64,000 nucleotides of DNA, taken from positions 3,086 through 67,085 of the IMG/VR virus record IMGVR_UViG_2974606035_000001. One strand, written 5' to 3'. The translations under genes and the position numbers were made by a program. The DNA comes from a virus (taxonomy: Duplodnaviria > Heunggongvirae > Uroviricota > Caudoviricetes > Demerecviridae). Below, one piece after another: positions 5,183 to 46,091 of this stretch. The notes under the pieces were generated by a model. It saw nothing but the letters and a program-made list of their open reading frames with translations. It was not told the DNA's origin and ran no database searches. The stretch's first letter is position 1; each line of letters begins with the position of its first letter.

Positions 5183-5340
5183 ACCGCGCCCGCGATGGTT
5201 AGCCTGCTAATGGTTAGGGTGTTACGTGTCGCCTTGTGTGATCGTTAGCTCGCTAACTAATTTTCAAGCCTCCTCCAATTTTGCCCTTGTTTTAGTCTAG
5301 GACGTTTTAACGCTATATTAGAACTATTCACTGCGTAGGA

Positions 5341-5381
5341 ATACTGTATAAATATACAGTAGGATAAGCTGTGGATAAGTC
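5341..5381. repeat. right arm of long inverted repeat: LexA-type box TACTGTATAAATATACAGTA + DnaA boxes (GGATAAG, TGTGGATAAG)
   Basis: reverse complement of 3591-3628. Confidence 0.6.
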
Positions 5382-5442
5382 TGTTAATAACGCCTCAAAA
5401 TGGCTAGGATTCTGTCAAGTCAAATCGTGCTGTTAATAAGTC

Positions 5443-6857: not shown

Positions 6858-7586
6858 TCATGAGTTTGGAGTTGGGTAAATTTTTATGCAACCTTGACTT
6901 AATAGATATTCTTCTGCCTCTATAGCTTTAATGTTGAATATCTCTTTTGCTCCATCGAATTTATAATGATTAGCAAATTTATTTTCAAAAAATTTATGTG
7001 CTTGGTGTTCTATTTTGTAGGCAAGTTCTTTCGATCCTTTCTTATATTGGTAGATACCAAATACCTCCATATCTTCGAAACCCGGCACACGCAGTTTATC
7101 ATACTCTAGATTCTTAAACCTTTGATGTGGCTCTCTAGAGACCCCAATCTTTGTCTTTAATTTTTTCCTAGACTGATCTTTATTAGAGAAGATATAGAGA
7201 TATGTGGGAAATTGAACATCTTCTTCTGCTTCCGGTTTCTCGATAGGTGTATTGAGATTGCTTTCTCTAGCACATTGTAAACAACCGTGCCCATCTAGGT
7301 GAGATCTAGCAGTTTGCATAAAGTATCCTTTATGCTTATAGCACCATATCTCTACTAACTGATTGGCTGTCTTATAATTAACTTTTTCATATCCATACTC
7401 TTCTTTCTGGACTTTTAAAGCTTTCCTAATAAAGATAAGGTTTAAGGCCTCTTGTTGGAAGTCGGGGTGAAGTTGCCTAATCTTCGTTATATTAGTAGAG
7501 CCATTTGACTTCAAAAAGTTTTTAAGAGGAAACCTCCGGGCTTCCTCGCGTAGCTTTTTATTAATTTCAGCACGTAAATCATCCAT
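6858..7586 (-). CDS. T5orf172/GIY-YIG-like domain protein (242 aa); C-terminal FDGAKEIFNI matches the T5orf172 protein at 47367-48230
   Basis: ORF track; YLYIF..KIGVS..R..E..FDGA.E.FNI motif; CxxC pair. Confidence 0.5.
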   Translation of the reverse strand: MDDLRAEINKKLREEARRFPLKNFLKSNGSTNITKIRQLHPDFQQEALNLIFIRKALKVQKEEYGYEKVNYKTANQLVEIWCYKHKGYFMQTARSHLDGHGCLQCARESNLNTPIEKPEAEEDVQFPTYLYIFSNKDQSRKKLKTKIGVSREPHQRFKNLEYDKLRVPGFEDMEVFGIYQYKKGSKELAYKIEHQAHKFFENKFANHYKFDGAKEIFNIKAIEAEEYLLSQGCIKIYPTPNS

Positions 7587-28980: not shown

Positions 28981-29009
28981 ATTATATTAGAAATTTAGCT
29001 TCATAGCAA
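28981..29009 (-). promoter_or_regulatory. early promoter copy directed into tRNA genes 28791-28965
   Basis: TAGCAA(rc TTGCTA)-17-ATTATA(rc TATAAT). Confidence 0.5.
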
Positions 29010-29505
29010 GAAAATTTTTCAAGTTTTCGGTAGACATCTCATCTACATCTACAGGGGAAACAAAGCCGTTTAATTTTCTAGCAAATTTTTCACCCGCAGG
29101 ATCGTTGTCTCCGACAGCTACCAATTTAAAAGGTAATAATTTCAGTTGCTTTAATAACGCTTTTCCTGGAGAAGAACCTAACATTGCCAGGGCTGGATAA
29201 CCAGCGTTATGTAACGCAACTGCCTTAAATACAGATTCAGCGATCAATACTACTTTTTCAGCTCCATTGAGAGTTTCTAGTCCCCATACACACTGTGTAT
29301 TAGAATAGGTAAAATATTTAGCCTCAGAGGGGCACTTACCATGACCTTTTGGAGCAGAAGGATTATACGTCTGATAGCCTCTCAACATCCCAGAGAAGTC
29401 ATACAACGGGACTGTTAGCCACCCTTCTGGACTTAACCAGCAATGATATTTATCTATATCAAATCCCCTAGATAAGAGGTGCTGTGTTAGCTCATCAACA
29501 TTCAT
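28987..29505 (-). CDS. Toprim-domain protein (DnaG-like catalytic core, ~173 aa from ATG 29505)
   Basis: VVLIAESVFKA...VAVGDNDPAGEKFARK; promoter+leader consensus 29512-29565 fixes start. Confidence 0.5.
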   Translation of the reverse strand: MNVDELTQHLLSRGFDIDKYHCWLSPEGWLTVPLYDFSGMLRGYQTYNPSAPKGHGKCPSEAKYFTYSNTQCVWGLETLNGAEKVVLIAESVFKAVALHNAGYPALAMLGSSPGKALLKQLKLLPFKLVAVGDNDPAGEKFARKLNGFVSPVDVDEMSTENLKNFLAMKLNF

Positions 29506-29682
29506 ATTTGGTTCCTCTCTCAAATTTATAGATATATTATACAGAGAATTTATCATTCGAGCAATCAAATTTTTTAACTTTTTAGAGGAAAATCGTAGGG
29601 CACTTAAGGGTAGCAGATAAGTGGTGAGGACCAAAATTTGTGACCCCACTAAAAATCCGGGGGCAATTTTTAAAGACCCCTT

Positions 29683-29715
29683 GACATTTTCGCTGGGGTA
29701 GTGTAAAGTATATGT
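29683..29715 (+). promoter_or_regulatory. sigma70-like promoter TTGACA-17-TAAAGT for plus-strand island
   Basis: ttgacattttcgctggggtagtgtaaagt. Confidence 0.4.
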
Positions 29716-29772
29716 TATGGATGAGTGATCAAAGAGACACACATTTTCTATATACTAGGAGGTGTCAAAAAA

Positions 29773-30759
29773 ATGACAGAAGAAGTAGCTAAGAGTCCTG
29801 AGACCGTCGCTAGCGTTGCAGCAGAACTGCACCGTCACGAGGAATCAGATAAGAAAAAGTGGGAGAAGGTCAGAGCCTACGAAGAAAAACATCGTGAACA
29901 TGATGATGAAGAAGATGACGATGATGAACATTGTCATAAATATGGAAAACATAAAATGCAAGAACCAGTAAACGTATTCACTAGTGGCTTCCCTGGCCTA
30001 CTGGGTGGTTACCCAGCAAACGCAGGTGCTTTCGGTGGTGAAGGTATGGGACTATTCGGAGCTATCCTAATCGGTGCTCTATTAACAGGCGGATTCGGTG
30101 GTTTCGGTGGATTCGGTGGACGTGGTGTAGTTGGTGATGGTACCGCAGTTGATGCAGTACTTCAGAACCAAGATACCGCTAGTATTCTAGCAGCTATTAA
30201 CACTACTCGTACAGAAGCTAATCAGGGTACTGGAGCTGTTTTAAGCGCAGTTAACAATGGTTTTAGCCAGACATCCCAAAACCAGAGCCGTGATACTCAG
30301 TCTGTACTAACTACGATCTATGGTACGGGTGCTAATCTGTCTAATCAAATCTGCCAGGAAACTCGCAACGTTATTCAGGGTCAGTTCGATCTTTCTCGCC
30401 AGATTGATCAATCTTTCGCAGCTAATCAGATAGCTCGTGCACAGGATAAGTTTGATTCTGCACAGATCGCTTTCCAGCAGACTTTACAAACTAATAACCA
30501 GTTTACCGCTGTTCAGGCTCAGATGTGTGCTAACCAGAACTCTCTGGAACGCCAGATCGCTGAATGTTGCTGTGAACTTCAGACTGCGATCGCTGGTGTA
30601 ACTACTGCGCGTATCCAGGATGAGTTAGATGCATGTCGCCTACGTGAAGCAATCGCTGCGGGTAATGGTGCTAACGGTCAGGTAATTAATCAAATCGCTG
30701 TAAGTCTTGGTGCTATCACTCAGACTCTGGCTGGTCTGCAGGCTAAACTGCCGGCTTAA
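29773..30759 (+). CDS. low-complexity protein: acidic/His-rich N-term, GGFGGFGGFGG Gly-Phe repeats, long Q/N/S/T-rich predicted helical tail (329 aa)
   Basis: ORF track 29725-30759; RBS TAGGAGGTG before ATG 29773; GC-rich codon usage unlike neighbours. Confidence 0.55.
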   Translation: MTEEVAKSPETVASVAAELHRHEESDKKKWEKVRAYEEKHREHDDEEDDDDEHCHKYGKHKMQEPVNVFTSGFPGLLGGYPANAGAFGGEGMGLFGAILIGALLTGGFGGFGGFGGRGVVGDGTAVDAVLQNQDTASILAAINTTRTEANQGTGAVLSAVNNGFSQTSQNQSRDTQSVLTTIYGTGANLSNQICQETRNVIQGQFDLSRQIDQSFAANQIARAQDKFDSAQIAFQQTLQTNNQFTAVQAQMCANQNSLERQIAECCCELQTAIAGVTTARIQDELDACRLREAIAAGNGANGQVINQIAVSLGAITQTLAGLQAKLPA

Positions 30760-30780
30760 TATTAAGGGGAGGAGCCCATT

Positions 30781-31197
30781 ATGAGTAAATATGGTTTTGT
30801 AAATAACGGACTTAATCAAAGTATGGGCTCCCAGCAGCCCATTCCGGGTCTGGATAACCCCTACTTACAACAGTTGCAACAGCGTTTAGCAGAAGCGCAA
30901 CAGATGCAGCAACAACTCCAGCAAAATCCTGGAAGTGTGAGTCCTATGCAAATGATGCAGCAAATGAGCGGGCAGTCGCAAATGCCTCAACAAATGCAGC
31001 AACAGGTGCCTCAGCAGCAAGTTCAGCAACAAACCCAACAACCGCAGGTTTCTGCGGAAGGACAGGCAGTACTAGCCCTTTTCGAAGACTTCGCAAAGAC
31101 AGAGGATGGGAAACAGCTTGTATCACTTATGGGTAAGTTTAATAGCTTCTGCCAAAGCCAAATTGCAAAAGCTCAAAATAGCGGTAATAACTCCTAA
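30781..31197 (+). CDS. Gln-rich (prion-like) protein, 138 aa
   Basis: ORF track; GGAGG RBS; >30% Q in central region. Confidence 0.5.
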   Translation: MSKYGFVNNGLNQSMGSQQPIPGLDNPYLQQLQQRLAEAQQMQQQLQQNPGSVSPMQMMQQMSGQSQMPQQMQQQVPQQQVQQQTQQPQVSAEGQAVLALFEDFAKTEDGKQLVSLMGKFNSFCQSQIAKAQNSGNNS

Positions 31198-31206
31198 GGA
31201 GGAATT

Positions 31207-31401
31207 ATGTGTTGCAGAAAATCTGTTTCGTGCTGCCCAATGCCTGTAGCACGTTGTTGCTCTCCAGCAATGTTTACGCAAATACCGGCGTTCAATCCGT
31301 TTGCCTTTAAGCCTACTCTTATCCTGCCCCCTAGAGTAGATTTTCAGTCAAGATTGGCCTCCCGTATGGGTGGTTGCTGTACACCGAGAGTATGGTTCTA
31401 A
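31207..31401 (+). CDS. Cys-rich small protein (64 aa; CC, CC, CC, CC pairs)
   Basis: ORF track; AAGGAGG RBS; followed by terminator. Confidence 0.45.
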   Translation: MCCRKSVSCCPMPVARCCSPAMFTQIPAFNPFAFKPTLILPPRVDFQSRLASRMGGCCTPRVWF

Positions 31402-31410
31402 ACCAAAAAC

Positions 31411-31447
31411 AAAAGCCCCTGCCGAAAGGTAAGGGGCTTTTTCTTTT
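31411..31447 (+). terminator. rho-independent terminator AAGCCCCT..AGGGGCTT + TTTCTTTT
   Basis: seen directly. Confidence 0.65.
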
Positions 31448-31461
31448 GCCTTAAATACAGA

Positions 31462-31497
31462 AAAGCCCGCGCTCTCGGAGGAAACGCGGGCTTGGTT
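31462..31497 (-). terminator. rho-independent terminator AGCCCGCG..CGCGGGCT + TTTTCTG (minus)
   Basis: seen directly. Confidence 0.6.
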
Positions 31498-31516: not shown

Positions 31517-32464
31517 TTACTTATTACGCATATCCATAATCATTTGGCCATCATAGCCAGTGCCAACTACAGTCTGAGGTACACCACCTTGATACTTCTG
31601 AGCACGAATCATTTCAACTTCCAGTTGCTTCCAGCGAATCATCTCAGGAGTAATGGTACGTTGTAATGCGGCGTTAGCTTCAGCTTCTTTCTTAGCTGCG
31701 TACAGTTTAGCATCTGCGTCACGTTCATTAGCAATAGCTTGGTTGTTGCGAGCTTCACGGTCTGCTTCTGCTTGTTTAACCTTCTGCTGTGCTTCTTGCT
31801 CAACGCGGGCCAGTTCAGCTTTAGCAGCATTAACTTGCTCTTCACGAACTTTGGTATTCTGTACCTGTTCCATGATTACTGGCGGCAAGGTAATATCCTG
31901 AAGGAATACCTGCTTAACTGTGTAACCATATGGGCGCGCATATTCTTCAACTTCCTGTTGAATTGCAGTTTGCAATTGAGCCTGAATTTTAGCATCAAAC
32001 AAATCTTGTGCTTTAGGTACAGACTTACCAAACTCACGAATAGTAGACAGTAATTTTTCAGTTACATACTTGTCTAGTGCCTGATCCTGAGTACCTGCGT
32101 TAATACGGTTAATCGGTGCCTTAGAACCATCAAATTGCAACATAACAGTCAGGTCAACAGTGGATTTAAACTTATCCTGACTAGGAACCTGAAGTTTATC
32201 TAATTTTACAGCAATATCTTTTGTACTAAAAGTATCGAAAGATGCAAACGGGTTTACAAGATGGAAACCCGGCAATACTGGATTAGGATCTACTTTACCC
32301 AGGAATGTTTGAGTTTTAACCGTACCATCAGAAACAATAGTATATGAATTAAAGGCTAGAATCAAGCCTGCTAAACCAACTACAGCACCAATACCCCAAC
32401 GTTTAATAGTACGAATTACTTTCTGCTCAGAAGTCAGTTCTTTCATATTTTTAGTATTAAACAT
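31517..32464 (-). CDS. SPFH/band-7 (prohibitin/HflKC-like) membrane protein, 315 aa
   Basis: N-terminal TM, SPFH-like core, long Ala/Glu/Gln coiled-coil tail. Confidence 0.55.
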   Translation of the reverse strand: MFNTKNMKELTSEQKVIRTIKRWGIGAVVGLAGLILAFNSYTIVSDGTVKTQTFLGKVDPNPVLPGFHLVNPFASFDTFSTKDIAVKLDKLQVPSQDKFKSTVDLTVMLQFDGSKAPINRINAGTQDQALDKYVTEKLLSTIREFGKSVPKAQDLFDAKIQAQLQTAIQQEVEEYARPYGYTVKQVFLQDITLPPVIMEQVQNTKVREEQVNAAKAELARVEQEAQQKVKQAEADREARNNQAIANERDADAKLYAAKKEAEANAALQRTITPEMIRWKQLEVEMIRAQKYQGGVPQTVVGTGYDGQMIMDMRNK

Positions 32465-32573: not shown

Positions 32574-33223
32574 TTTAAGTATTTTTAAGAACTCTCGTAA
32601 AAACTCTTAAAAATACAGACGATACCGGGAGAGTCATAAGTCTCACTCATTAAGTATTTCAAGACAAAATACAGTAACGTCTATTATTTTCCAGTTTAAG
32701 TCAGGGTGACTTAGTGGTTATGTCCTGCGGTATATTGAGGACTCGGTTAGGCTTGGGGTCATGACTTCCCACCTTTTGCTGCTACTCAACAGGAGTTATC
32801 GCGAATTACCTGTGCTATTGTGCACCATTAGTGACATCTCTCATGTCAGCATTTCCCACTTTGTGGATAGCTTGAAAAACTACTCCGATATGGAGAAAGA
32901 ACTTCACTATCCTAGAATACCTTCTAAAGTTCTTCTTTAGCCTGGACATAGTTAAATCGTAATAAAACTATTCAGCAGACTGGTTGGTTAGTCTGGAACC
33001 AACTACCGCGTGGTTTAGGCAGTGCGCAACTAACCTCGGAAGCTTTTACGTTAAAAGCACCAGTTATCCAGTTCTTACCGACCGTAGGATTCGAACCTAC
33101 ATCTTCCACCAGTTACGGCTTGATAATACCAATTATACTAGGACGGCAGTGTTACTACATAAGTGATTTCCACACCCCACTATTTATAAATTAGATAGAA
33201 ATTACTCTCTAATTTATAAATAT

Positions 33224-33252
33224 ATTATACAGAATTTAAAGGCATTTAGCAA
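33224..33252 (-). promoter_or_regulatory. early promoter copy with no ORF downstream (points into 32.6-33.2 kb tRNA-like region)
   Basis: TAGCAA-17-ATTATA on plus = TTGCTA-17-TATAAT on minus. Confidence 0.5.
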
Positions 33253-33260
33253 ATAAATTT

Positions 33261-41680: not shown

Positions 41681-44600
41681 TTAAATAGTACAACCACCGG
41701 ATGCACACCCAGCAGCAGCAGCTTCTTCACCTGCACCTCCACCATTTGCGGTATTGAAGTTAGCATAATACCAAGTTTTCCACCCATACTTAACAGCAGT
41801 CATGAAATCACGAACTACTACTGGGCCAGGAATGATTTCATTCTCAAACTTGGTGTAGTCATAGTACATATTCGTACTGATAGACTGACTGAAGAATTTC
41901 TGCATAGTTGCTACCCATTTGATCCACTCGATACGATCTACATCATAAGCCAGTTTATAGCTCATTAACGTTTCCCAATCGGTTGCACCTGGAGCAATTG
42001 CAATTACTTTATTTACTGCACTACCCTTGATAGATACAATCTTACGAGGCGGTTCAATAGAGTTAGTAACACCTAACAGAACAGAAGAACTTTCCCCTGG
42101 CATCTGAGCAGTCAGAACAGAGTTACGCATACCGTATTTCATAATATCTGCACGCAGAGATTCCCAATCCATTTCTAGACCTACGGATACCAACTCATCA
42201 ACAGTTTTCTTGTACGTGTCGATTACCAGAATTCCTTTAGATGGTTTAGTACGATCAAACCACTCACATGCACCCTGTTCCTTAGCCAGGCGTACAGAGG
42301 CTTTATGCAGGAAGTAAGACAGTTTTTCAGCCTCACGGTGGATCCAGTTACGAGCTTCAATACCTTCGTAAGCCAGACCTTCTGCTGCCATTGCACCTGC
42401 TGCGTTCATTAGGCCAATACCAACATTACGACGTTTCTTAGCCGTATATTCCATAGTTGGGAACGGATAATCCTGAATTTCAATAATTGTATCAACGAAT
42501 TTCAGAAGGATGTAGCAAGTTTTTTCCCACTCAGCCAGAGATTCCATACGCCCAAGTACAACACCACCTAAGTTACACAGAGATACTTCACCAATATCCT
42601 CCGGCTTCATTTGATCAAGCTGCTCTTTTGTCTTATACAGCTCTGTAATATGATGGAACGGGCGTGTAGGCTGAGTAATTTCTACACAGTTACCCGCTAA
42701 AATGCCATTAAATACCCCCAAGTTTAATTTAGGTTCTGTAAAGCAATAGGTATCACTAATACGACCAGTAAACTCAACGTTAGTTACAGTTACAAAACGG
42801 GTTGCATCTCTATTGGGGCGTGTTAGGTTTAAGAGTTTCTCTTTATCCAAAGATAGTCCTAAATCTTTAAGTTTCCAGAAGCCACTACTCCCCACAATAA
42901 GCCTACTAGTCTCCTTGCAGTGGTATAGTTTACTACTACCAGTACCATCTGGTAACTCGTAGTCACCTTCTTGGCGTCCTAAAATAATCTTGCTAGTAAT
43001 CCCCAATTCTAGTAACAAATCCTTCACTTTACTTAGAAAATCAGGCTCTGCCGAAGCAACCACAATACTGGGGGTTGTGCCATTTTTCTGTATGCAGCCA
43101 TCTGCATCTAAATATCCCTCTAACCATTTGATACGGCTATCAATAGTGTATTCTGGGCCAGGTACAAAATACTTCGGCATTAAATCAGACTTAACAATAT
43201 AGCTCAGTCTACCTGTGCTGTCCAGTAATCCACTTCCCTGAATCTCTGCATCAATTTTATCTACTAATGGTAGTTTGCCACCTTTTTCATAGAAGTACAG
43301 CTTAGGTTCTCCATGTCTTCCATAAGTTCCATCTCCAGTGAAGAAACCGTTAGTATAAGGAGATTTTAGTACCATATTTCCATGATCTACAATAGGATTA
43401 CTAAATTTAGGCATTTTCATACCTACTTGCAAGTCTACTGCTCGTACCTCTTCTAGCCCCTGTTTGAGGGAGGTACGACGATCCTCTCTGACATATTTGG
43501 GCTGGTGGTAGAACTTATGATAAAGAGTAGATTCAATAGTAGATCCATCAGAGAATGTGATTTTCATCAACTCCTGAGCTTCCCCAGTTTTAGCAGGGAT
43601 AACTGTTGACCATTCTTGCCCGTTCCAAATCTCTACTTCTTTACCAACTAAATCAATAATCTCTATGTTACCATTTTTGGTTAAAATTTTTGTTTCTGGA
43701 GCTACACAAAGGTTAGTCATACGGATCGGATCAAGGAAGTTACCGTGACGATTAGATTCCCCGATGTGATGAGCATACATACGTCCTGTTTCCATTCGGA
43801 TACGTAGCCAAGTATCTAGGATTTCTTTTGCAGAAACTTTAGGAGCTGCAGGAACTGTTTTTCCTTCGTGGTCGATCTTTGTAAGAGATGCCACACGTTT
43901 CTCCGCTGCCACGTAGATTTCTTCAAATTTAGCCTCGTCATCACTATAAAACGCTTCATGAACTTCTGGAGCATAGAAGTATGACATTAGCGTAATATCT
44001 TCGTTTTTAAGATAACGTTTTAACAAAAGATTGTTAAAGCTCAGAGAATAATCCATCTTATCGATTTTATTCTCATCTGTAGCACGTTGTTGCTTAACCT
44101 GCATCAGTTGAATGATTTCAGGGTCGAAGTATGGATAAGACACTGTAGCAGAACCACCACGACTATTACCACACACAGTAGTGTGACCATTACGACGTAC
44201 TACTAGTTTATTAGTCGGTACTTCTACGCAGTAGACTTTACCACTATACTCAATTTCAGTTTCTTTAATGCCTTCCGCAGTCATATCTACTTGGTCAAAA
44301 TAGACATAACAACGATTTTCAGTACTAGTATTTGAACGCACTCCTGCAATTGCTGCTAGAGCCTGCACCACATGTTGTTGCCCTGCGTGACTTGAGTATT
44401 CTCCAACATTTTCGGATTTCCAGTACCCATCCCACTCCATGATTTCTTTCAATGCTTCTTTCGCAGCATTAGATGTTAAATCCTTCTCTAGCAGGAAAGA
44501 TAAGTCTTTCGAGTAGTATAGCTGCTCATGCCCAATATGAATGGTAGTTACACCTTGTTCATTTAGTTTCTTAGAATATTTAAGACCTAAGTCATCTAAG

Positions 44601-45949
44601 ATACATACTAAACGATCTACCTTGCGTTGCTTTTTAAATCCGAAACGATACGCTCTACCTGTATTTGTTTCTACGATTGAACCATCAGCCTGCAATGCAA
44701 TACGGAAGCGGTCTAGCATGGTGATAGTATCAGTACCATTTGTTTTCTGCGCTGAACCAAAATCAAGTACATGGGTTCTTTTTGGTTGCCAATCTTCTGC
44801 TAATACTTTCTGATACCCAGGTTTACGTTGGATATGTTTATTGTCATAGGATACTTTACGATATACCATAGTATGGTTAGGGGTTACTAGAAGATCAATC
44901 CCTCTTTTCTCAAAACGTAACATTGTGCCCTTATAATCATACTCAAATACGTTAAGAGGTAGTACCCATTCTAGTCCTCTAGTATCCGTAATCTGGGCTA
45001 TTAGCTCGTCACCCTTAAGTTCTGAGAATAGCTTCCAACCTTTCTTAGTTAGGACTTCTGTATCCGCAGAGTAACACTGTTGAGTGTTTGCCTTTACTGA
45101 GCGGTCAATGTGTCGATAATATGGCAGTTTTCCGGAATGCGGGAATGCCCCATTTCGCACCGGATCAGCAATTGATCGGCTTTCAAGATGATACCCGATT
45201 CCCGCTCTGGCTGCGACCATTTTGAAGACGATGTGCTCGGCGGTGTCGATTGAATCCAACGTGTCAGTGGAATCCACGAGGCAGCAACTAGCAAATCCAC
45301 GGTCACTAGAGCGCAGACCAACCAGTGGCGGCGTAGGAACGTTGATTTTGTGGAGTGACATTGCGTTGTAGAGGTCGATTGCATCTAGAATTGTCCAGTT
45401 AGGTTGAGATAGCATCGCCATTGCCATACCCATGTAGGCAAACTGCGGAGTTTCATAAATTTCACCAGTGGCTATGTTACGACGGGAATACTTATCAAAG
45501 AACTGCTTCAGTCCACCACTAGTGAAAAGACGATCACGATCGTGATCGATAACCTGATTCAGAGCTTCAAATTGCTCATCGGTAATCCATGCACTCATGT
45601 CTTCCCAGGCACCTACGCTAACCATGTGGTCATGGAAGAAGCGCAGAGAAGGTGGTTCGAAAGAATCATAAAGGCGTTTACGCATTTGCGCAAGACGTAA
45701 TTCCTTTGCTGGCACGTCGTATGCTGGATTATCTTTGATAAGACTTTCAGCAGCTTTAATTAATGCATCCATCAGAGTGTCGGAATCTACAACCCCTTTA
45801 GGTAGAGTTTTTTGAGCAGCCATAGTAATGGCTGACCAACTTACATCAACTGTTTTGCAACCATACTCTGCCCAACCATTGAGTTTTTCAGGAGCAAAGT
45901 CTTCTACAGTACCGTCACGTTTAATTACTTTTTCAATGCGATTGCTCAT
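41681..45949 (-). CDS. nrdA: ribonucleotide reductase class Ia alpha subunit interrupted by two inteins (start chosen at MSNRIEK, AAGGAAA RBS)
   Basis: ATP-cone N-terminus, NLC..E active-site motif split by Cys..Asn/Cys insertion; ~1420 aa vs ~760 expected. Confidence 0.75.
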   Translation of the reverse strand: MSNRIEKVIKRDGTVEDFAPEKLNGWAEYGCKTVDVSWSAITMAAQKTLPKGVVDSDTLMDALIKAAESLIKDNPAYDVPAKELRLAQMRKRLYDSFEPPSLRFFHDHMVSVGAWEDMSAWITDEQFEALNQVIDHDRDRLFTSGGLKQFFDKYSRRNIATGEIYETPQFAYMGMAMAMLSQPNWTILDAIDLYNAMSLHKINVPTPPLVGLRSSDRGFASCCLVDSTDTLDSIDTAEHIVFKMVAARAGIGYHLESRSIADPVRNGAFPHSGKLPYYRHIDRSVKANTQQCYSADTEVLTKKGWKLFSELKGDELIAQITDTRGLEWVLPLNVFEYDYKGTMLRFEKRGIDLLVTPNHTMVYRKVSYDNKHIQRKPGYQKVLAEDWQPKRTHVLDFGSAQKTNGTDTITMLDRFRIALQADGSIVETNTGRAYRFGFKKQRKVDRLVCILDDLGLKYSKKLNEQGVTTIHIGHEQLYYSKDLSFLLEKDLTSNAAKEALKEIMEWDGYWKSENVGEYSSHAGQQHVVQALAAIAGVRSNTSTENRCYVYFDQVDMTAEGIKETEIEYSGKVYCVEVPTNKLVVRRNGHTTVCGNSRGGSATVSYPYFDPEIIQLMQVKQQRATDENKIDKMDYSLSFNNLLLKRYLKNEDITLMSYFYAPEVHEAFYSDDEAKFEEIYVAAEKRVASLTKIDHEGKTVPAAPKVSAKEILDTWLRIRMETGRMYAHHIGESNRHGNFLDPIRMTNLCVAPETKILTKNGNIEIIDLVGKEVEIWNGQEWSTVIPAKTGEAQELMKITFSDGSTIESTLYHKFYHQPKYVREDRRTSLKQGLEEVRAVDLQVGMKMPKFSNPIVDHGNMVLKSPYTNGFFTGDGTYGRHGEPKLYFYEKGGKLPLVDKIDAEIQGSGLLDSTGRLSYIVKSDLMPKYFVPGPEYTIDSRIKWLEGYLDADGCIQKNGTTPSIVVASAEPDFLSKVKDLLLELGITSKIILGRQEGDYELPDGTGSSKLYHCKETSRLIVGSSGFWKLKDLGLSLDKEKLLNLTRPNRDATRFVTVTNVEFTGRISDTYCFTEPKLNLGVFNGILAGNCVEITQPTRPFHHITELYKTKEQLDQMKPEDIGEVSLCNLGGVVLGRMESLAEWEKTCYILLKFVDTIIEIQDYPFPTMEYTAKKRRNVGIGLMNAAGAMAAEGLAYEGIEARNWIHREAEKLSYFLHKASVRLAKEQGACEWFDRTKPSKGILVIDTYKKTVDELVSVGLEMDWESLRADIMKYGMRNSVLTAQMPGESSSVLLGVTNSIEPPRKIVSIKGSAVNKVIAIAPGATDWETLMSYKLAYDVDRIEWIKWVATMQKFFSQSISTNMYYDYTKFENEIIPGPVVVRDFMTAVKYGWKTWYYANFNTANGGGAGEEAAAAGCASGGCTI

Positions 45950-46091
45950 TTGGCTTTCCTTTTTATAGTTATCAGGATTTAAGGAATATTCTACATTATT
46001 ATTGGTCATTAGGCAAATAAAATTTTCTGATAGAAAAGGCCCGAGTATTTTCATACCCAGGCCCTGTATATTACCAGTCTAGCTTTTTAGC

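What the first reader, a model, noticed from the sequence alone, without database searches (positions are those of the whole stretch)
29683..31447. Compositionally foreign plus-strand island in the tRNA cluster encoding three low-complexity proteins (Gly/Phe-repeat + polar tail; poly-Gln; Cys-pair-rich)
Three co-oriented genes run against the local minus-strand flow and have tight RBSs. They have their own TTGACA-type promoter and a strong terminator. GC content and codon usage are visibly higher than in neighbours. Products are a 329-aa protein with a His/Asp/Glu-rich head, a GGFGGFGGFGG segment and a long Q/N/S/T-rich helical region, a 138-aa protein that is more than 30% Gln, and a 64-aa peptide with four CC pairs. 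None resembles a known phage enzyme. FG/Gly repeats plus prion-like Q-rich and Cys-rich partners suggest a condensate/matrix-forming or envelope-targeting module, or a bacteriocin/RiPP-like peptide with helper proteins. The gene convergent with the island encodes an SPFH/prohibitin membrane scaffold (31517-32464). This could be a novel phage-encoded membrane-associated assembly.
Basis: partly seen in the sequence, partly recalled or inferred. Interest (0 to 1): 0.8.

Follow-up and report, generated by a model that had tools for sequence, protein, structure and literature searches.

The report
Mobile cysteine-motif accessory cassette in phages
A self-contained three-gene unit in this T5-like phage, dispensable in the laboratory and of unknown function, is a mobile cassette shared with unrelated phages and built around a probably membrane-anchored protein with an invariant triple-cysteine motif plus two small cysteine-bearing partners.

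Summary
The window is Salmonella phage SP3, a T5-like phage. The island is real and equals T5 genes T5.077-T5.079, annotated since 2004 as promoter P12, three hypothetical ORFs and a bidirectional terminator. No function is known, and no Pfam, NCBIfam, PADLOC or PDB relative was found.

New here: the trio P1-P2-P3 is a horizontally mobile cassette. It keeps the same order, with a terminator after P3 wherever I checked, in T5-likes, Pseudomonas phage KPP23, an N4-like phage, two lambdoid phages (between Q and the lysis genes) and one further backbone. Outside T5-likes it also has a divergent small zinc-ribbon gene.

The conserved features are cysteines: the P1 motif QIAECCCELK, one Cys in P2, and an N-terminal Cys cluster plus one invariant internal CC pair in P3. 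P1 also has a glycine-rich hydrophobic segment. The poly-Gln tract and the SPFH neighbour are lineage-specific.

The cassette is dispensable: the viable T5 st0 deletion removes it, and CRISPRi-ART scores all three genes 'Not Fit'.

Best reading: a moron-type accessory operon making a membrane-associated, cysteine- or metal-bridged complex with a conditional role, probably in phage-host or phage-phage conflict. The RiPP, condensate, spanin and SPFH-partner readings are not supported. The function remains inferred.

The parts
29681..29709 (+). Sigma-70 promoter (TTGACA-17-TAAAGT), equivalent to T5 / phage 5 early promoter P12
   Evidence: scan scores 10 of 12. It is annotated as P12 in AJ604531 and NC_005859 and as 'putative early promoter' in AY587007. 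It sits in the same position in the distant T5-likes L004 and L011.
29757..29762 (+). Shine-Dalgarno site AGGAGG for P1, 10 nt before the ATG
   Evidence: Annotated as an RBS in AJ604531.
29773..30759 (+). P1 (328 aa; T5.077 homolog, PHROG 8119). Charged His/Asp/Glu head (nt 29773-30027), glycine-rich hydrophobic segment with GGFGGFGGFGG (30028-30147), polar helix-predicted domain (30148-30756)
30565..30573 (+). Codons for the invariant Cys265-Cys266-Cys267 of the family signature (R/K)Q(I/L)A(E/D)CCCE(L/I)(K/Q)
   Evidence: Invariant in alignment A2. Present in 75 of 101 non-redundant family representatives.
30781..31197 (+). P2 (138 aa; T5.078 homolog, PHROG 7894). N-terminal helix, disordered Gln/Pro-rich linker, and a C-terminal helical hairpin with invariant Cys124
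31207..31401 (+). P3 (64 aa; T5.079 homolog). Pro/Phe-rich peptide that starts Met-Cys-Cys and has four CC pairs
   Evidence: Present directly after P2 in all ten loci examined.
31411..31447 (+). Intrinsic terminator of the cassette (hairpin plus U-run)
   Evidence: -22.8 kcal/mol, z = -4.4. Annotated as an 'efficient bidirectional rho-independent terminator' in T5. An equivalent terminator follows P3 in L013 (scan); in L012 and L035 a hairpin followed by a T-run after P3 is visible in the printed sequences (read by eye).
31462..31493 (-). Terminator of the convergent SPFH gene. It marks the cassette boundary and is not part of the cassette
   Evidence: 12-bp stem with 7 GC pairs.

Best explanation
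The island is an autonomous, horizontally mobile accessory ('moron'-type) operon. It is transcribed by host RNA polymerase from its own early promoter and ended by its own terminator.

It encodes three proteins that most likely assemble into one membrane-associated complex held together through their conserved cysteines:
- P1 is the anchor. It has a marginally hydrophobic glycine-rich segment followed by a low-charge polar helical domain carrying the invariant ECCCE motif.
- P2 is an adaptor: a helix, a flexible linker, and a helical hairpin with an invariant Cys.
- P3 is a short peptide whose N-terminal Cys cluster and one internal CC pair are conserved.

The bridging chemistry is most likely metal-thiolate, helped by the His-rich heads. 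It would be disulfide if the domain faces the periplasm.

The complex is not needed for lytic growth in laboratory hosts. I infer a conditional role at the cell envelope in phage-host or phage-phage conflict, such as exclusion of competitors or counter-defence.

Shown: autonomy, mobility, co-inheritance of the three genes, the conserved motifs, dispensability, and the absence of known homologs.

Inferred: membrane insertion and topology, physical interaction, metal binding, and the biological role.
For: Autonomy:
- Promoter, three RBSs and a terminator are present.
- The orientation is opposite to the flanking genes in T5-likes, the N4-like locus and both lambdoids; in KPP23 and L036 genes on one flank share the cassette's strand.

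Mobility and co-inheritance:
- The order P1-P2-P3 is the same in ten loci.
- These cover T5-likes, Pseudomonas phage KPP23, an N4-like contig (virion RNA polymerase upstream), two lambdoid contigs (between Q/NinG and holin-lysozyme-Rz) and a further backbone.
- P1 identity across these is 36-59%.
- A terminator or terminator-like hairpin follows P3 wherever it was checked.
- The cassette's GC tracks each backbone.
- It is absent from Klebsiella, Proteus, Vibrio and Aeromonas T5-likes: 388 cassette records against 907 core-gene records.
- No relatives were found in 185,579 bacterial and archaeal genomes.

Cysteine theme:
- P1 has invariant C252 and C265-267, and CCC occurs in 75 of 101 family representatives.
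- P2 Cys124 is invariant.
- P3 has an invariant CC pair and an MCC-type start.

Metal theme:
- 22 of 130 family members, from nine or more lineages, have heads with at least 8% His.
- In Edwardsiella phage eiAU a separate His-rich protein is encoded directly after the family member.

Membrane:
- The Gly-rich segment has a mean Kyte-Doolittle score of 1.4-2.0.
- It is flanked by an acidic residue on the N side and Arg on the C side.

Dispensability:
- The viable T5 st0 deletion spans T5.076-T5.081.
- CRISPRi-ART scores T5.077, T5.078 and T5.079 as 'Not Fit' (PMC11879866 supplements).

Accessory, conflict-type neighbourhood:
- T5.076 is an anti-retron gene, and phage tRNAs counter defences.
- In lambdoids the slot is the classical Q-S moron site.
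Against: - No experiment addresses expression of P3, interaction, localisation or metal content.
- The hydrophobic segment is only marginal for a transmembrane helix. Most CCC-motif family members (62 of 75) lack it under my strict criterion, so membrane anchoring is not a family-wide property.
- AlphaFold gives a low-confidence P1 model (pLDDT 46.8).
- The polar domain shows no heptad periodicity.
- Compartment is unresolved. The low-charge Q/N/S/T-rich composition resembles extracytoplasmic proteins, while P2 and P3 have no signal peptides.
- PADLOC has no match.
- The nine tRNA-region fragments of phage SP15 gave retron rescue only from F6 and F8, and I could not establish whether the cassette was in a tested fragment.
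- The conflict role rests on genomic context alone.
Confidence: 0.4

Rival explanations
1. Metal handling is itself the function. The His-rich head, the CCC domain and the CC-pair peptide would buffer, sequester or deliver a metal such as Zn, Cu or Ni during infection, and would not merely use metal as structural glue.
For: His-rich heads recur in independent lineages. A separate His-rich protein sits next to the eiAU family member. Cysteines are invariant in all three proteins. A Cys6 zinc-ribbon gene accompanies the cassette outside T5-likes.
Against: The KPP23 head has no His-rich tract, yet the cassette is intact there. P3 is only 12.5% Cys and is rich in aromatic residues, unlike metallothioneins, and has no Pfam metal-domain match. 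No transporter or metallochaperone domain is present.
Confidence: 0.12
2. A lysis or membrane-fusion accessory, resembling a spanin or a viral fusion protein. A glycine-rich fusion-peptide-like segment plus long helices plus a Cys cluster would act on the envelope at the end of infection.
For: The architecture superficially recalls the Rz i-spanin (TM segment, helical periplasmic domain, Cys) and class I fusion proteins. In both lambdoids, and in crAss-like cr4_1, the gene lies near lysis genes.
Against: KPP23 has its own two-component spanin (PMC6139136), and L013 and L035 have Rz. hhalign of P1 against that Rz gives a probability of 0.2%. P2 and P3 have no lipobox or signal peptide. The unit is driven by an early sigma-70 promoter in T5 and lies antisense to late transcription in the lambdoids. 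There is no heptad periodicity and no second membrane anchor. Knockdown has no fitness effect.
Confidence: 0.08
3. A condensate or matrix-forming module driven by prion-like Gln-rich and Gly/Phe-rich low-complexity regions.
For: In T5-likes, P2 is 27.5% Gln overall and 45% in its linker, and P1 has GGFGGFGGFGG and a polar domain that is 38% Q/N/S/T.
Against: The Gln tract is not conserved. The linker varies in length and becomes Pro-rich in the N4-like, lambdoid and L036 versions, while the flanking helix and hairpin are conserved. The conserved determinants are specific motifs (CCC, TEDGKQL...FCQS), not bulk composition.
Confidence: 0.08
4. A virion-associated or ejected structural protein, as the 'spike' or 'fiber' labels given to crAss-like relatives would suggest.
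For: Broad-family members in crAss-like phages and in eiAU sit in or next to late and tail gene blocks. Some are labelled 'spike protein/glycoprotein' or 'outer capsid protein/viral fiber'.
Against: In T5 the unit has an early promoter and is deletable without loss of viability. The KPP23 record labels a nearby gene (ORF080) 'virion protein' but ORF074, its P1 homolog, only 'hypothetical protein'. The labels are unverified profile-type annotations.
Confidence: 0.06
5. A RiPP or bacteriocin locus in which P3 is the precursor peptide and P1 and P2 are helpers.
For: P3 is a short Cys-rich peptide with its own RBS.
Against: No modifying enzyme, protease, transporter or immunity gene co-travels in any of the ten loci. 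P1 and P2 have no enzyme-like domain. P3 has no leader/core organisation conserved across backbones.
Confidence: 0.04
6. A functional partner of the convergent SPFH/Band 7 membrane scaffold (T5.080).
For: The two are adjacent and convergent in the Tequintavirus and Epseptimavirus loci examined, and both are probably membrane-associated.
Against: SPFH is absent next to the cassette in L004, L011, KPP23, L012, L013, L035 and L036. The two are separate transcription units, each with its own terminator.
Confidence: 0.05

Closest known systems
Phage 'morons': autonomous accessory transcription units of lambdoid phages, such as the lom/bor-type units and the Q-S slot that holds stx (from my own knowledge of the concept)
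   Same: It has its own promoter and terminator. It is present or absent among related genomes, has a distinct orientation and base composition, is dispensable for lytic growth, and in two lambdoid phages sits exactly in the Q-to-lysis slot.
   Different: It is a three-gene (four outside T5-likes) co-inherited module and not a single gene. It is carried mainly by virulent phages (T5-like, N4-like), and no host-benefit or exclusion phenotype is known.
Two-component spanins Rz/Rz1
   Same: A membrane-anchored protein with a long helical domain and functionally conserved cysteines, paired with a small Pro-rich Cys-containing partner.
   Different: There is no sequence or profile similarity. The small partner has no lipoprotein signal. 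The carrier phages keep their own spanins. The unit is under early, not late, control in T5. Knockdown shows no fitness effect.
Intermolecular metal clasps: the Rad50 zinc hook and the CD4/CD8-Lck zinc clasp (analogy recalled from my own knowledge, not tested)
   Same: Short Cys motifs embedded in helical or disordered segments of different chains would jointly coordinate a metal to hold a complex together.
   Different: The motifs here are CCC and CC, not CxxC or CxC. No metal binding has been shown, and there is no homology.
Class I viral fusion proteins: a Gly-rich fusion peptide, helical repeats and a CX6CC loop (analogy recalled from my own knowledge)
   Same: The Gly-rich hydrophobic segment GMGLFGAILIGALL resembles fusion peptides, and it is followed by long helices and a Cys cluster.
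   Different: There is no heptad periodicity, no second transmembrane anchor, no receptor-binding subunit, and the protein is not shown to be in virions.
Phage superinfection-exclusion membrane proteins, such as T5 Llp and T4 Imm/Sp (from my own knowledge)
   Same: Early-expressed, non-essential, envelope-located accessory products.
   Different: There is no homology. Llp is a lipoprotein that blocks FhuA. The cassette occurs in phages of different hosts (enterobacteria and Pseudomonas), so any exclusion would probably have to act on a generic step. No exclusion phenotype has been tested.

Membership tests
Moron-type autonomous accessory unit | Own promoter and own terminator flanking the gene(s) | tested here: met
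   The promoter is at 29681-29709 and equals annotated P12. The terminator folds at -22.8 kcal/mol, z = -4.4.
Moron-type autonomous accessory unit | Patchy presence among related phages, and occurrence in unrelated backbones | tested here: met
   388 cassette records against 907 Demerecviridae core-gene records. Also found in KPP23, an N4-like phage, two lambdoids and L036.
Moron-type autonomous accessory unit | Dispensable for lytic growth | tested here: met
   The viable T5 st0 deletion removes it. CRISPRi-ART scores all three genes 'Not Fit'.
Two-component spanin (Rz/Rz1) | An outer-membrane lipoprotein partner with a signal peptide and lipobox | tested here: not met
   P2 and P3 start MSKYGF... 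and MCCRKS..., with no hydrophobic signal sequence or lipobox.
Two-component spanin (Rz/Rz1) | Homology to i-spanin families, or being the phage's only spanin candidate | tested here: not met
   hhalign against the Rz of L013 gives probability 0.2%. KPP23, L013 and L035 carry their own spanins.
RiPP / bacteriocin gene cluster | A precursor peptide accompanied by a modifying enzyme and/or a dedicated transporter or immunity gene | tested here: not met
   P1 and P2 contain no enzyme or transporter domain. None co-travels in the ten loci.
Metallothionein-like peptide (P3) | Very high Cys content in CxC/CC clusters, few aromatic residues, and a match to a known metallothionein family | tested here: not met
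   P3 has 8 Cys in 64 residues (12.5%) and is rich in Phe and Pro. It has no Pfam match.
Prion-like / condensate-forming Q-rich protein (P2) | The Q/N-rich low-complexity tract is the conserved functional element | tested here: not met
   The linker is variable and becomes Pro-rich outside T5-likes, while the flanking structured elements are conserved.
SPFH-associated operon (SPFH plus a partner membrane protein) | Conserved co-occurrence with the SPFH gene | tested here: not met
   SPFH is adjacent only in the Tequintavirus/Epseptimavirus loci examined, and is absent from the seven other loci.
Known anti-phage defence systems (PADLOC models) | A match to any defence-system protein model | tested here: not met
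   No hits at E <= 1.
Canonical coiled-coil protein (P1 C-terminal domain) | Significant 3.5-residue hydrophobic periodicity | tested here: not met
   Power at periods 3.5-3.67 does not exceed shuffles (fraction of shuffles at or above the observed value 0.51).
Bitopic inner-membrane protein (P1) | A hydrophobic helix long enough to span the membrane, and experimentally defined topology | tested here: inconclusive
   A 17-residue window has mean Kyte-Doolittle 1.9 but is Gly-rich. The charge pattern weakly favours N-out/C-in. No dedicated topology predictor or experiment was available.

The most novel reading that the evidence does not exclude
P1, P2 and P3, plus the divergent zinc-ribbon gene outside T5-likes, constitute a previously unrecognised kind of phage accessory system. 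It would be a virus-restricted 'ECCCE-motif' protein superfamily whose membrane-anchored members assemble, through metal- or disulfide-bridged cysteine clusters, with two dedicated small partners. That complex would carry out a new envelope-level function, for example a receptor-independent block to competing phages or neutralisation of a membrane-based host defence. The system spreads horizontally between virulent and temperate phages of different hosts.
Probability: 0.25. Interest if true: 0.75.

Novelty: new variant of a known kind. Interest (0 to 1): 0.5.

Why it matters
T5 is a model phage, yet these three genes have stayed 'hypothetical' for twenty years. Three points turn an anonymous island into a defined, testable module:
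- They form a co-inherited cassette that has moved between at least five phage backbone types.
- The cassette is defined by a sharp cysteine signature shared with about a hundred uncharacterised viral protein clusters, including crAss-like gut phages.
- It is dispensable in laboratory hosts.

The cassette sits in the same accessory region that supplies T5's anti-retron gene and defence-evading tRNAs. A conditional role in phage-host or phage-phage conflict is therefore a concrete hypothesis that a clean deletion and an expression plasmid could test.

The work also corrects annotations. These are the 'cAMP-dependent protein kinase' label on P2, the wrong reading frames for two KPP23 ORFs, and the many genomes that omit P3.

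Tried and rejected
- **Family libraries.** Pfam, NCBIfam, PADLOC and PHROGs on all three products gave only PHROGs of unknown function.
- **Solved structures.** Sequence and profile searches for P1 and P2 found nothing.
- **P1 structure.** AlphaFold2 gave pLDDT 46.8, too poor for a fold search.
- **P2 structure.** The model has a confident C-terminal hairpin, but Foldseek against PDB and BFVD returned only the KPP23 homolog.
- **Spanin idea.** Rejected.
- **Coiled-coil idea.** No heptad periodicity.
- **Prophage or bacterial origin.** No relatives in GTDB species genomes through the two patterns used.
- **More backbones.** IMG/VR (two scans) and JGI metagenomes returned only T5-likes.
- **Literature.** Nothing under T5.077-079, and nothing specific on the tRNA-region ORFs.
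- **T5 papers.** The mutagenesis and DNA-degradation papers do not treat these genes.
- **Virion proteomics.** The AKFV33 study is too shallow to be informative.
- **Rfam.** Only tRNAs and sub-threshold terminator-like hits.
- **Zinc-ribbon gene.** No counterpart in the T5-like window.
- **Distant family members.** Source names are all unnamed metagenomic proteins.
- **P3 codon bias.** Within T5-likes the counts are 12:7:5 (third:second:first position). This is only a trend and not significant alone. The case for P3 rests on cross-backbone conservation.
Full report
**Identity of the window and check of the observation**

The segment 29600-31500 is 100% identical to Salmonella phage SP3 (MG387042), a T5-like phage, and matches 388 phage records. 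The three + strand ORFs are P1 29773-30759 (328 aa), P2 30781-31197 (138 aa) and P3 31207-31401 (64 aa). They lie among - strand genes and tRNAs. Each has a strong Shine-Dalgarno site.

The unit has a TTGACA-17-TAAAGT promoter at 29681-29709. It ends in a hairpin with a U-run at 31411-31447 (-22.8 kcal/mol, z = -4.4).

The same unit was annotated in 2004 in the phage 5, BF23 and T5 tRNA-region records. There it appears as promoter P12, ORFs of 327, 138 and 64 aa, and a bidirectional terminator. In T5 the genes are T5.077, T5.078 and T5.079. The convergent gene 31517-32464 is SPFH/Band_7 (E = 2e-17).

- P1 is 328 aa.
- P2 is 27.5% Gln.
- The GC excess is real: 46.5% against 39.1%, the highest 1.6-kb stretch of the window.
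- However, P1's GC3 (0.331) equals the genome mean (0.335 +/- 0.063). Only P2 and P3 are modestly higher.
- In five other loci from four backbone types the cassette's GC follows that of the carrier phage.
- The island is therefore compositionally distinct mainly because of its amino-acid content. It is not recently foreign.

**No known family**

Pfam, NCBIfam and PADLOC give nothing for P1, P2 or P3. PHROGs places P1 in phrog_8119 and P2 in phrog_7894, both of unknown function, and has no family for P3. Sequence and profile searches against all PDB chains find nothing for P1 or P2.

The 'cAMP-dependent protein kinase catalytic subunit' label seen on some P2 homologs is carried by the T5 record AY587007 (gene 'kapc'). 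It has no support from Pfam.

No paper in the searchable library discusses T5.077-079.

**The trio is a mobile cassette**

P1 homologs at 36-43% identity occur on other contigs. A tblastn search also found Pseudomonas phage KPP23, at 59.5% identity over the C-terminal half of P1.

Reading the loci shows the same three genes, in the same order, in ten loci:
- Tequintavirus (the window and T5) and Epseptimavirus (Stitch).
- Two distant T5-like contigs, L004 and L011.
- KPP23 (L008).
- An N4-like contig with a virion RNA polymerase upstream (L012).
- Two lambdoid contigs, where the cassette lies between the Q antiterminator/NinG genes and holin-lysozyme-Rz (L013, L035).
- A further backbone, L036.

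A terminator follows P3 in L013, and the printed sequences of L012 and L035 show a hairpin and T-run after P3. In T5-likes, the N4-like locus and both lambdoids the unit is antiparallel to the flanking genes; in KPP23 and L036 one flank is co-oriented.

Gene callers often missed P3, and the KPP23 record annotates the overlapping wrong frame. A 49-91-aa ORF beginning MCC, MCGCC or MSCNCGC nevertheless follows P2 in all ten loci. One internal CC pair is invariant, and CCPMPVxRCC is shared between T5-likes and a lambdoid.

Within T5-likes, P3's variable sites lean to third codon positions (12:7:5) and include synonymous Cys codon changes. That count is only a trend. The cross-backbone conservation is the real evidence that P3 is a gene.

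**Distribution**

A core replication protein of the window matches 907 Demerecviridae records, about 440 of them at 80% identity or more. The cassette DNA matches 388 records, almost all Escherichia or Salmonella phages. It is essentially absent from Klebsiella, Proteus, Vibrio and Aeromonas T5-likes.

Other scans:
- A pattern scan of 185,579 bacterial and archaeal species genomes found no relative.
- IMG/VR and JGI metagenome scans returned only T5-likes.
- The non-T5 carriers are therefore rare in curated collections.

**A fourth gene outside T5-likes**

In all five non-T5 loci a 48-67-aa ORF lies upstream of P1 on the opposite strand, its start 82-109 nt from the P1 start codon. It has six invariant cysteines (CxxCG-x5-CxxCG ... 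C-x-P-x-C) and a basic RxRK tail. It gives only sub-threshold zinc-ribbon and NinG N-terminal matches.

It looks like a small nucleic-acid-binding regulator, which is an inference. The two lambdoid loci share a palindrome (GGTGCTAA-TAC-TTAGCACC) in the intervening leader.

T5-likes have no counterpart. They keep a conserved strong sigma-70 promoter instead, even in L004 and L011.

**What is conserved in the proteins**

P1 has these parts:
- A variable charged head, often His-rich (up to 15 His in Epseptimavirus-type versions).
- A short (E/T)PVNVF motif.
- A Gly-rich hydrophobic segment (GMGLFGAILIGALLTGGFGGFGGFGG).
- A 200-residue domain that AlphaFold predicts as long helices, at low confidence (pLDDT 46.8).

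That domain is extreme in composition. It has 13% charged residues (genome ORFs 24.5 +/- 4%, minimum 15%) and 38% Q/N/S/T (genome maximum 30%). It has no heptad periodicity.

Invariant across backbones are C252 and C265-C267.

An exhaustive profile search of 1.84 billion representatives found 101 clusters at E < 1e-3. Of these, 75 carry CCC in the context (R/K)Q(I/L)A(E/D)CCCE(L/I)(K/Q)xxI, and 13 of the 75 also have the Gly-rich segment under a strict criterion.

Family members occur in several contexts:
- crAss-like phages, some labelled 'spike' or 'fiber', lying between lysis and tail genes in cr4_1.
- Edwardsiella phage eiAU, after the tail genes.
- Next to a Pox_A32-type ATPase.

The family appears to be restricted to viruses.

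P2 is predicted as a helix (residues 27-48), a disordered linker, and a confident helical hairpin (92-134, pLDDT 80-88). Across backbones the helix, the hairpin (TEDGKQLV..GKFN.FCQS) and Cys124 are conserved. The linker varies in length and is Gln-rich only in T5-likes and Pro-rich elsewhere.

**Dispensability**

The classical viable mutant T5 st0 (AY692264, 113,238 bp against 121,750 bp) carries a deletion from T5p066 to T5p079. That removes T5.076, the cassette, the SPFH gene, tRNA-Arg and RNAX.

The genome-wide CRISPRi-ART screen of T5 lists T5.077, T5.078 and T5.079 as 'unknown function' and 'Not Fit' (PMC11879866, supplementary files 8 and 16).

The same table annotates the divergent neighbour T5.076 as anti-retron. 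Spontaneous 8-kb deletions of the tRNA-rich region make T5-like phages sensitive to retrons (PMC11555353). I could not establish whether the cassette was inside a tested fragment.

**Interpretation**

Shown:
- An autonomous, mobile, co-inherited and dispensable operon.
- Conserved determinants that are cysteine motifs, plus a hydrophobic Gly-rich segment in P1.

Inferred:
- The three proteins form one complex. Co-inheritance supports this, as does the fact that the co-conserved parts are the P1 C-terminal half and the P2 hairpin, while the P1 head is not conserved in KPP23.
- The complex is membrane-associated.
- Cysteines bridge it, through metal or disulfides.

The metal version gains some support from two observations. 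His-rich heads occur in at least nine independent lineages. In eiAU a separate His-rich protein is encoded directly after the family member, a gene-fusion-type link.

Compartment is unresolved:
- Local charges (acidic before the segment, Arg after it) and the lack of signal peptides on P2 and P3 favour a cytoplasmic C-domain.
- The low-charge polar composition is more typical of extracytoplasmic proteins.

The biological role is inferred from context only. The contexts are the accessory, anti-defence region in T5, the Q-S moron slot in lambdoids, patchy distribution, early promoter control and lack of a laboratory phenotype. Together they point to a conditional function in conflict with hosts or with other phages.

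**Rivals**

- Spanin or fusion role: rejected on homology, missing lipoprotein, presence of the phages' own spanins, timing and lack of fitness effect.
- RiPP or bacteriocin: no enzymes or transporters co-travel.
- Condensate: the Gln tract is not conserved.
- SPFH partnership: the neighbour is lineage-specific.
- Virion protein: early control and deletability in T5 argue against it, although crAss-like and eiAU relatives do sit by late genes.
- Metal handling as the function itself remains possible.

**Novelty and score**

The ORFs themselves are long annotated. I found no prior description of three things:
- The cassette's mobility across phage families.
- The ECCCE-motif superfamily.
- The obligatory P2 and P3 partners and the zinc-ribbon companion.

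I file it as a new variant of a known kind, namely a moron-type accessory operon. There is a 0.25 chance that it represents a new kind of envelope-level phage system. Interest is 0.5: a well-defined, testable unknown in a model phage, with no surprising mechanism yet demonstrated.

Noticed in passing
L008 5265-5411 (-), L012 4755-4910 (-), L013 4715-4918 (-), L035 5743-5916 (-), L036 5758-5913 (-): A conserved 48-67-aa Cys6 zinc-ribbon protein with a basic tail is divergently transcribed from P1 in every non-T5 backbone. It is absent from T5-likes. It may be the cassette's regulator.
   Followed up: partly
L008 (KPP23, AB910392) 6936-7118 (+) and 5265-5411 (-): KPP23's annotated ORF072 and ORF075 are in the wrong reading frames. 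The conserved genes there are the MCC peptide and the zinc-ribbon ORF. In Pseudomonas phage RSP the P3 locus is labelled 'alpha/beta hydrolase like protein'.
   Followed up: yes
window 30781-31197, and P2 homologs: The label 'cAMP-dependent protein kinase catalytic subunit' (gene 'kapc' in AY587007) recurs on P2 homologs in several T5-like genomes. Pfam finds no kinase domain, so it looks like a poly-Gln artefact. The same record splits P1 into ORF072 and ORF073.
   Followed up: yes
window 31462-31493 (GCGC at about 31469-31472): The second terminator hairpin contains the GCGC core of T5's nick consensus. The T5 records place 'major single-stranded nick 3 (32.6%)' at the equivalent spot, just past the cassette.
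   Followed up: no
window 32574-33260, with a tRNA-like hit at 33076-33147 (-): This ORF-poor stretch corresponds to T5 'RNAX', a stable RNA of unknown function. Rfam finds a tRNA-like element there (35.5 bits) that ARAGORN did not report.
   Followed up: no
window 28987-29505 (-): The divergent Toprim-domain neighbour is the homolog of T5.076 and SP15 ORF75. It is reported to let T5-like phages evade retrons Eco2 and Eco7, by an unknown mechanism.
   Followed up: partly
L004 6573-8206 (-): In a distant T5-like phage the SPFH position is taken by a 190-aa protein with an N-terminal hydrophobic segment and a 353-aa multi-pass membrane protein. Different membrane proteins therefore occupy the slot convergent with the cassette.
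   Followed up: no
L065 (Edwardsiella phage eiAU) 4774-5139 (+): P858_09, directly after the CCC-family member P858_08, is a strikingly His-rich 121-aa protein.
   Followed up: partly
L013 and L035, about 40-60 nt upstream of P1: The two lambdoid loci share a leader containing the palindrome GGTGCTAA-TAC-TTAGCACC, a candidate operator or RNA stem.
   Followed up: no
L005 8088-8555, L037 1796-2281: Two broad-family members (P0031, P0087) both lie three genes upstream of a DUF7841 gene. This suggests conserved synteny in crAss-like phages.
   Followed up: no
L015 5563-6348: This family member's gene does not translate to its protein under genetic code 11 and is broken into short ORFs. The contig may use a reassigned stop codon.
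   Followed up: no
L012 4278-4675; L035 10031-10107: tRNA genes also lie next to the cassette in the N4-like contig (Asn, Gln, Tyr) and about 3 kb away in one lambdoid (Arg-tct). None lies near it in KPP23, L013 or L036, so the association with tRNA islands is only partial.
   Followed up: partly
window 41681-46054 (-): A 1457-aa ORF, the largest in the window. I did not examine it.
   Followed up: no
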